This document shows, piece after piece, positions 61,257 through 61,473 of a stretch of DNA of 64,000 bases. The notes below the pieces were generated by a model. The model was not told where the DNA came from, did no database searches, and was given only the letters and a program-made list of their open reading frames with translations. Within the stretch, counting starts at the first letter, position 1. Every line of letters begins with the position of its first letter. The position numbers were made by a program, and so were the translations under genes. Origin of the DNA: an uncultured Verrucomicrobiae bacterium (GTDB taxonomy: Bacteria > Chlamydiota > Chlamydiia > Chlamydiales > Rhabdochlamydiaceae); the NCBI GenBank assembly GCA_963731265.1, contig CAVSUE010000001.1, positions 64,001 through 128,000 on the forward strand, written 5' to 3'.

Positions 61257-61473
61257 GAACCTATTCCAGAATTCGAAAAATTTGATCTTTGAAGGATTTT
61301 TTCACAGATCTTAATGCCGCTTCGCAGGACATAGCTGCAATGATCTTCCAGTGGATGATTGCAGGTCCCCTCAGAGCCAAAAAGCTCTTGAGGGGACTGT
61401 ATTCCCAAGAAGCGGCATTAAAAGGTGTGGAAAAAGACACAAAAAGCATTTTTTCAAATTCTGGAATAGGTTC
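61257..61473. mobile_element. Palindromic MITE-like element abutting the carA start codon
   Basis: GAACCTATTCCAGAATTCGAAAAA / TTTTTCAAATTCTGGAATAGGTTC, plus inner TTAATGCCGCTTC / GAAGCGGCATTAA. Confidence 0.8.

What the first reader, a model, noticed from the sequence alone, without database searches (positions are those of the whole stretch)
61334..61396. Two elements with unrelated termini share a covarying two-hairpin core
Seen: the pyrB element (minus strand, 52278-52333) reads GCTGCAACCAT-taaagg-ATGGTTGCAG-G-TCTCCTCGGAG-ttcaaa-CTCCGAAGAGA. The carA-upstream element (plus strand) reads GCTGCAATGATC-ttccagtg-GATGATTGCAG-G-TCCCCTCAGAGC-caaaaa-GCTCTTGAGGGGA. Both have two adjacent stems with a 1-nt G linker. 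Substitutions are compensatory: C-G to T-A in stem 1, T-A to C-G and G-C to A-T in stem 2. The outer TIRs (GACTGCGCC versus GAACCTATT) share no similarity. Inference: an undescribed structured RNA or ssDNA module under selection for its fold, either cargo or a recognition site of a modular MITE family.
Basis: partly seen in the sequence, partly recalled or inferred. Interest (0 to 1): 0.85.

Follow-up and report, generated by a model that had tools for sequence, protein, structure and literature searches.

The report
Hairpin cassette shared by unrelated mini-transposons
A 60-base double hairpin sits at the tip of two unrelated kinds of miniature jumping elements in a chlamydia-like bacterium, likely as an optional passenger copied between them rather than a signal they need to jump, so it is a new example of modular repeat building and probably not a new RNA gene.

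Summary
The core occurs 19 times in this genome, in 5 of 18 sister genomes and in one metagenome, with real compensatory changes (8 of 16 pairs, 0 of 500 shuffles) and no Rfam match. The 'G linker' is paired, so the stems abut directly.

The core is optional cargo. The carA shell has IS5-type ends and the pyrB shell IS630-type ends. The matching full-length IS elements lack the core, and both shells spread without it in other genomes.

Core-less shells covary as much (38 of 63 and 33 of 53 pairs), so covariation does not single the core out. It lies antisense to the neighbouring gene in 5 of 5 A shells and sense in 12 of 13 B shells, which argues against a host mRNA role. It occupies at least four different sites, and related hairpin modules are shuffled the same way.

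Best reading: an apical module of mosaic MITEs, copied by template switching; precedent is boxB shared by unrelated BOX ends in Streptococcus suis. Unexplained: purine-rich loops on one strand. Earlier scan notes described the shells elsewhere in this genome; none shown to me described the shared core.

The parts
61335..61364 (+). Core hairpin H1 of the carA copy (CTGC/GCAG closing stem; 3-nt insertion and one mismatch relative to intact copies)
61365..61397 (+). Core hairpin H2 of the carA copy (GTC/GAC base, one bulged base), directly abutting H1
61257..61473 (+). A-type shell, 217 nt: IS5-type terminal repeats plus imperfect A-body arms; core at the apex; abuts the carA start codon on the minus strand
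   Evidence: empty site in G003 (L193); core-less forms of about 160 nt
60195..61256 (-). carA, carbamoyl-phosphate synthase small subunit; its ATG directly follows the element, whose core is antisense to it
   Evidence: (TIGR01368 417.7 bits)
52307..52332 (-). Core hairpin H1 of the pyrB copy
52277..52306 (-). Core hairpin H2 of the pyrB copy (one C-A mismatch shared with sibling copies)
52200..52428 (-). B-type shell, 229 nt between duplicated TA (52429-52430 and 52198-52199): IS630-type ends, B-body arms, small hairpin M4 with the core in its loop
   Evidence: core-less form of the same subfamily in G003 (L155)
52180..53331 (-). pyrB, aspartate carbamoyltransferase; the element adds 231 nt (77 codons) in frame five codons before the stop (383 aa instead of 306)
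   Evidence: (empty sites in G003 and G002)

Best explanation
The core is an optional two-hairpin cassette at the tip of miniature inverted-repeat elements with IS5-type and IS630-type ends, and it was likely copied from one element into another by template switching during replication, then likely carried round the genome whenever a transposase moved its shell. Shown: the shells have IS-matching ends and, for pyrB, a clean TA duplication; they exist with and without the core; the core has sharp ends (G-CTGC ... GAC-N-G) and sits at four or more non-homologous sites; sister modules are duplicated and swapped likewise. Inferred: transposases act on the shells in trans; the copying mechanism; compensatory changes arise partly by arm-to-arm copying and are filtered at the level of founder elements, because a compact branched fold is tolerated next to start and stop codons or in frame. 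The core itself would have no job for the host.
For: Ends: the A end matches an IS5-family element in G016 at 13 of 17 nt (a sister MITE at 16 of 17) with the same AT-flanked junction, and a second IS5 in G004 ends alike. The B end matches an IS630 in G008 at 11 of 16 nt, a sister MITE at 23 of 27. None of 20 loci that include these IS elements holds a convincing core. Dispensable: core in 6 of 19 genus genomes by two methods, while A shells match in 16 of 18 and B shells in 14 of 18 relatives. Several sites: A apex, before M4, inside the M4 loop, twice in one element, alone in an ORF start in G005, and under further end types in G004 and G013. The core tree puts A-type cores in B shells of G005 (61 columns, weak). 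Slippage footprints: partial tandem duplications of the sister module M3 that restart at its GCTGC in L146, L148 and L278. Covariation is element-wide. Orientation to transcription follows the shell. No sbcD above cut-off in G000, which may let long palindromes persist (genome 96% complete). Precedent: PMC3049150 section 7; PMC3733652 section 7; mechanism: PMC8794818 passages.
Against: A and B insertion sites share only 1-2 nt, yet the core's ends are sharp at every site, which also fits a dedicated enzyme. Pure arm-to-arm copying should erase mismatches, but loops persist across species and are purine-rich on the strand that carries the core forward (26 of 33 and 47 of 60 unpaired columns; G-A 71 versus T-C 13 in A arms and 59 versus 6 in B arms, non-independent copies). 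Three sequence-unrelated modules keep the same CTGC/GCAG-G junction. No clear template-switch signature in H1: one apparent loop inversion in 35, which a single substitution also explains. The IS partners were found in sister genomes, not in G000. Movement was not observed.
Confidence: 0.6

Rival explanations
1. The core, M3 and M7 are variants of one strand-specific structure that a protein recognises in single-stranded DNA or in an element-derived RNA, and carrying it raises the spread or survival of any shell.
For: Shared grammar of GCTGC, hairpin, GCAG, then an abutting hairpin starting with G in three modules. Purine-rich loops on the same strand in both bodies, whichever strand is transcribed. 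In G000, 13 B-body elements carry a core. Covariation with several pair types.
Against: Shells amplified without the core in G001 and G017. Unpaired columns are not more conserved than paired ones (0.83 versus 0.88 and 0.82 versus 0.88). A genome-wide count of the grammar was inconclusive (48 hits, most of them background, versus 4-19 for control stems). In B shells purine richness may reflect tolerance of translation. No candidate protein was found.
Confidence: 0.2
2. The core is itself a tiny mobile element of the REP or PATE kind, moved by an HUH (tyrosine) transposase and inserting into hairpin tips.
For: Sharp ends at several sites without long flanking homology, and one shell-free copy. 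GCAG before H2 fits the degenerate GYAG tag described for REPs (PMC3733652 section 5). REP dimers inside palindromic shells are known (section 7).
Against: The GCAG is paired inside H1, not a free tag. Empty sites share no target motif and no CT junction, and flanks are remodelled. The only Y1 transposases in G000 are two IS605 TnpA genes with no core nearby. Y1 genes were found in only 3 of the 6 core-bearing genomes. Only one shell-free copy among about 40 cores seen.
Confidence: 0.1
3. The core is a structured RNA that works for the host (stability, processing or translation control of the neighbouring gene) and is kept by host-level selection.
For: Stable fold, G-U and compensatory pairs. 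Most cores lie in or just upstream of genes. Other MITE RNAs affect transcript stability (PMC2229807, part 1 of 3 read).
Against: Antisense in 5 of 5 A shells and sense in 12 of 13 B shells. Absent at the orthologous pyrB and carA sites of the four relatives compared. Many copies carry uncompensated breaks. Not found convincingly outside the genus.
Confidence: 0.07

Closest known systems
BOX elements of Streptococcus pneumoniae and S. suis (PMC3049150; passages and section 7 read)
   Same: Composite MITE-like repeats with optional internal modules that fold largely on their own. In S. suis two families with different end modules (boxA/C and boxE/F) surround the same boxB module.
   Different: No sequence relation was tested. 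Here the module is a branched pair of abutting hairpins at an apex, enters at several different sites rather than as a tandem array, and the two shells match two IS families (IS5 and IS630).
Bacterial MITEs with optional inserts and in-frame insertions: Correia/NEMIS, RUP, Rickettsia RPE (PMC2229807, part 1 of 3 read; RPE also in passages of PMC3733652)
   Same: Short non-coding elements with terminal repeats, long imperfect stem-loops, TA-type duplications, forms with and without an internal piece, in-frame insertion into housekeeping genes.
   Different: The Correia insert carries an IHF site and is described within one family; this core is a covarying hairpin pair shared between families.
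GTAG- and CGTC-tagged REPs, including REP dimers inserted into long palindromes in Anabaena variabilis (PMC3733652; passages and sections 5 and 7 read)
   Same: A small hairpin unit nested at the centre of a larger palindrome; complementary stem variants between subfamilies.
   Different: No free tag, stems of 10-14 bp in two unlike hairpins, empty shells are common, and no REP-associated transposase was found.

Membership tests
MITE (shells) | Terminal inverted repeats, short, no transposase | tested here: met
   217 and 229 nt elements with terminal repeats
MITE (shells) | Target duplication against an empty site | tested here: met
   pyrB: TA duplicated versus G003 and G002. carA: empty site present in G003, but the AT duplication is imperfect on one side in this copy; most sister copies are AT-flanked
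MITE (shells) | Ends match an autonomous IS | tested here: met
   IS5-family L246 and L242; IS630 L173; found in sister genomes, not in G000
MITE (shells) | Mobilisation in trans | not testable with these tools
   Needs an assay
MITE (core alone) | Own terminal repeats and target duplication | tested here: not met
   Ends are not complementary; at most a 1-3 nt G repeat at some junctions and none at others
REP / RAYT | Unpaired GTAG-type tag at the foot of a hairpin | tested here: not met
   GCAG fits GYAG but is paired in H1 in nearly all copies
REP / RAYT | Associated tyrosine transposase flanked by the repeats | tested here: not met
   Only IS605 TnpA in G000, no core in those loci; Y1 genes in 3 of 6 core-bearing genomes
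PATE / IS200-IS605 derivative | Ends like a resident IS605 and a fixed tetra- or pentanucleotide target | tested here: not met
   No core match in IS605 loci; empty sites share no target
IS91 / ISCR derivative | Y2 transposase in the genome | tested here: inconclusive
   No hit, but the control genomes did not ring either
Described RNA family (Rfam 15) | Match at gathering score | tested here: not met
   Window: only a tRNA; 14 and 16 further loci: only sub-threshold hairpin models, none on a core
Expressed structured RNA | Discrete transcript | not testable with these tools
   No RNA run was listed
BOX-like composite repeat (works like) | Optional internal module shared by elements with different ends | tested here: met

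The most novel reading that the evidence does not exclude
The genus carries a family of interchangeable cassettes (this core, M3, M7) that share one strand-specific junction of two stacked helices. An unknown factor recognises it in single-stranded DNA or element RNA and inserts it at hairpin tips, so a second layer of mobile parasites rides on IS5- and IS630-driven MITEs and improves their spread.
Probability: 0.15. Interest if true: 0.8.

Novelty: new variant of a known kind. Interest (0 to 1): 0.45.

Why it matters
It is a clear case of MITEs built in three swappable tiers (transposase ends, arm 'bodies', tip modules), with one module crossing between elements that match two different IS families. 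It is also a caution: strong covariation in repeat families can be element-wide and need not mark a functional RNA. If the shared junction proves to be a recognised structure, it would point to an unknown mobilisation or tolerance mechanism.

Tried and rejected
RNA-seq: no RNA holder was listed, which is no evidence either way. Viral contigs: 0 pattern matches. GTDB-wide exact pattern: 10 loci, 8 real cores in shells of the kinds seen in sister genomes, 2 not supported by the model. Metagenomes: 23 loci, 7 real cores, all from one data set in A shells; 16 lack H2. Family and order searches with the covariance model: 1 of 110 other-genus genomes (E 0.0099) and 1 of 150 (E 0.015), both unconvincing on inspection; only 34-40 candidates per genome were scored. 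The model was trained on 19 G000 cores and 3 from relatives, so those match by construction. Idea that loops are more conserved than stems: rejected. Replication-strand bias: none, 10 leading and 9 lagging; this tests shell insertion, not core insertion. SbcCD cutting at hairpin tips as the insertion trigger: no sbcD above cut-off. GIY-YIG partner: one hit in a 705-aa ORF, probably UvrC by inference. Autonomous elements bounded by A or B ends in G000: none within 4 kb at 3 mismatches. Pairs of shells 0.7-1.5 kb apart enclose ordinary genes. Tree of B arms: core presence needs several changes, but only 5 of 38 branches are well supported. Grammar count: inconclusive. Chlamydial marker OmcB: no hit and no control; four long nucleotide-transporter (TLC) hits fit a chlamydia-like intracellular host, but the taxonomy is not otherwise verified. 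Paper searches with no result; two searches listed nothing relevant by title or abstract start. Most subscription papers are outside that library.

Full report
Observation. In the carA copy H1 spans 61335-61364 and H2 61365-61397; in the pyrB copy H1 spans 52332-52307 and H2 52306-52277 on the minus strand. Both fold far better than shuffles (z -6.7 and -7.5). The 'G linker' is the first base of H2 and pairs with C in 30 of 35 cores, so the helices abut. The carA copy has a 3-nt insertion and a mismatch in H1. Rfam has no match.

Distribution. A motif scan and a covariance model give 19 cores in G000: 5 in A shells and 14 in 13 B-body elements. The model was trained on these copies, so the independent evidence is the motif scan and the hits elsewhere. 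The core is in 5 of 18 other genomes of the genus by model and by pattern. It is not found convincingly in 110 other genomes of the family or 150 of the order (limited candidate scoring). An exact pattern over all GTDB genomes gave 10 loci, 8 of them real cores in the same kinds of shell. Metagenomes gave 7 real cores among 23 loci and viral contigs none. The host looks chlamydia-like (four long TLC transporter hits); I did not verify its taxonomy further.

Covariation. On a sequence-only alignment of 35 cores, 8 of 16 counted pairs change on both sides (30 cells; 0 of 500 shuffles; slid controls at most 7 cells). The outer part of H2 was left out there because bulges shift the register. Anchored at its base it shows A-T, C-G and T-A at the fourth pair (13, 15 and 5 of 35; fitted anchor). 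Related copies inflate these counts. The control matters: core-less A shells have compensatory changes at 38 of 63 predicted pairs and core-less B shells at 33 of 53, so the whole element covaries. Within H1 there are 5 compensated, 2 wobble and 12 broken change types, so inserted copies decay. Template switching in replication can produce compensatory changes in one step (PMC8794818, passages read), so covariation alone does not prove selection on the fold.

The shells. The pyrB element is 229 nt between duplicated TA dinucleotides and adds 77 codons in frame; G003 and G002 have the empty site. Its ends resemble a complete IS630 in G008 (11 of 16 nt; a sister MITE 23 of 27). The carA element is 217 nt and abuts the start codon; G003 has the empty site, though the duplication is imperfect on one side. 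Its ends resemble IS5-family elements in G016 and G004 (13 of 17 nt; a sister MITE 16 of 17). These IS elements hold no core. A shells match in 16 of 18 and B shells in 14 of 18 relatives; of the full elements I recovered, 24 of 41 B elements lack the core, as do many A elements. G001 (36 B matches) and G017 (20 A matches) have no core. The core is therefore not needed for the shells to spread.

Modularity. The same arm 'bodies' occur under several end types, and tip modules occur in several bodies. The core sits at the A apex, before the small hairpin M4, inside the M4 loop, twice in one element (L031) and once without a shell in the start of an ORF in G005. Its ends are sharp, but the sites share only 1-2 nt and the flanks are remodelled; in filled A bodies a new 3' stretch pairs with the left arm. 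A short tree places A-type cores in B shells of G005 (weak support). A more common module, M3 (pattern in 8 of 19 genomes), and a third, M7, use the same grammar: GCTGC, a hairpin, GCAG, then a second hairpin starting at the next G. Partial tandem duplications of M3 restart at its GCTGC (L146, L148, L278), which is the footprint expected of replication slippage at hairpins (inference). Whole elements also nest in one another, including one inserted into an H2 (L150).

Orientation. With heuristic gene calls, the core is antisense to the nearest gene start in 5 of 5 A shells and sense in 12 of 13 scored B cores, one more being between convergent genes. These are two families, not 18 independent events. 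There is no replication-strand bias (10 to 9). A fixed role in host mRNA is therefore unlikely.

What is left unexplained. Unpaired positions are purine-rich on the strand that reads the core forward, in both bodies (26 of 33 and 47 of 60 columns), and that strand is the more stable fold with DNA parameters in 16 of 18 A and 15 of 15 B elements. That strand is the mRNA in B but not in A. Loops persist across species although arm-to-arm copying should erase them. Against over-reading this: loops are no more conserved than stems, the G-T bias is seen in A only, and the grammar count was inconclusive.

Mechanism. Most likely (0.6): optional apical cargo, copied between abundant hairpin elements by template switching and spread by IS5- and IS630-type transposases acting on the shells. 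The architecture, the IS-matching ends, dispensability and multiple sites are shown; trans-mobilisation, the copying step and founder-level filtering are inferred. Rivals: a recognised strand-specific structure that helps elements spread (0.2); an HUH-moved mini-element (0.1), which fails the tag, target and transposase tests; a host RNA element (0.07).

Known comparisons. S. suis has two BOX families with different ends around the same boxB module (PMC3049150, section 7 read). REP dimers sit inside long palindromes in Anabaena (PMC3733652, sections 5 and 7 and passages read). Correia elements come with and without an internal piece, and RPEs insert in frame (PMC2229807, part 1 of 3 read). Searches for these elements in chlamydiae found nothing, within a library that lacks most subscription papers; supplements were not consulted. 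Earlier scan notes described the shell population in this genome; none of those shown described the shared core, and sequence and word look-ups returned nothing.

Verdict. Real, and absent from Rfam and from the papers searched; a new variant of modular MITE architecture rather than a new RNA class. Interest 0.45.

Noticed in passing
window 31590-31690 and 48461-48561; G000:C1 about 927790-927900: A 101-nt repeat with three hairpins (98% identical copies). The same sequence lies between tnpB and tnpA in one IS605 copy and is missing from the second copy; it fits the IS200/IS605-type mini-element of earlier notes.
   Followed up: partly
window 49279-49424: An A-body element under yet another terminal repeat, without core, between pyrE-like and pyrD-like ORFs (names from my reading of the translations).
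   Followed up: partly
window 13139-13310, 25898-25966, 48581-48691: Three more long palindromic elements; the pyrimidine gene cluster alone carries at least five insertions.
   Followed up: no
L196 (G001, upstream of carA): An independent insertion upstream of carA: B-type ends, a different body and an M3-like module.
   Followed up: partly
L267, L271-L276 (G001, G012, G013): Multi-branched elements of about 290 nt with IS630-like ends that carry M3 plus a third module (M7) whose second hairpin resembles the A-body apex; z -12 for L275, no Rfam match. An M7-like copy is at G000:C2:161469.
   Followed up: partly
L150 (G004:C212): An element with GAG-starting ends and a likely 3-nt duplication is inserted inside H2 of a core that is itself inside an A shell.
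   Followed up: partly
G000:C1:718732-719963 and 394875-396106: IS630 copies whose ends resemble a third MITE family of this genome; one is inserted into the arm of a core-bearing B element.
   Followed up: partly
L088 (G005:C1:397015-397072): The only shell-free core, with its own compensatory change in H1, lies in frame near the start of a long ORF.
   Followed up: partly
G000, whole genome: No sbcD above the curated cut-off (best E 7e-6), which may explain tolerance of so many long palindromes.
   Followed up: no
window 53560-55689: A 709-aa ORF with short DNA repeats at about 125-nt spacing that looks like an F-box and WD40-type protein (my reading, not scanned).
   Followed up: no
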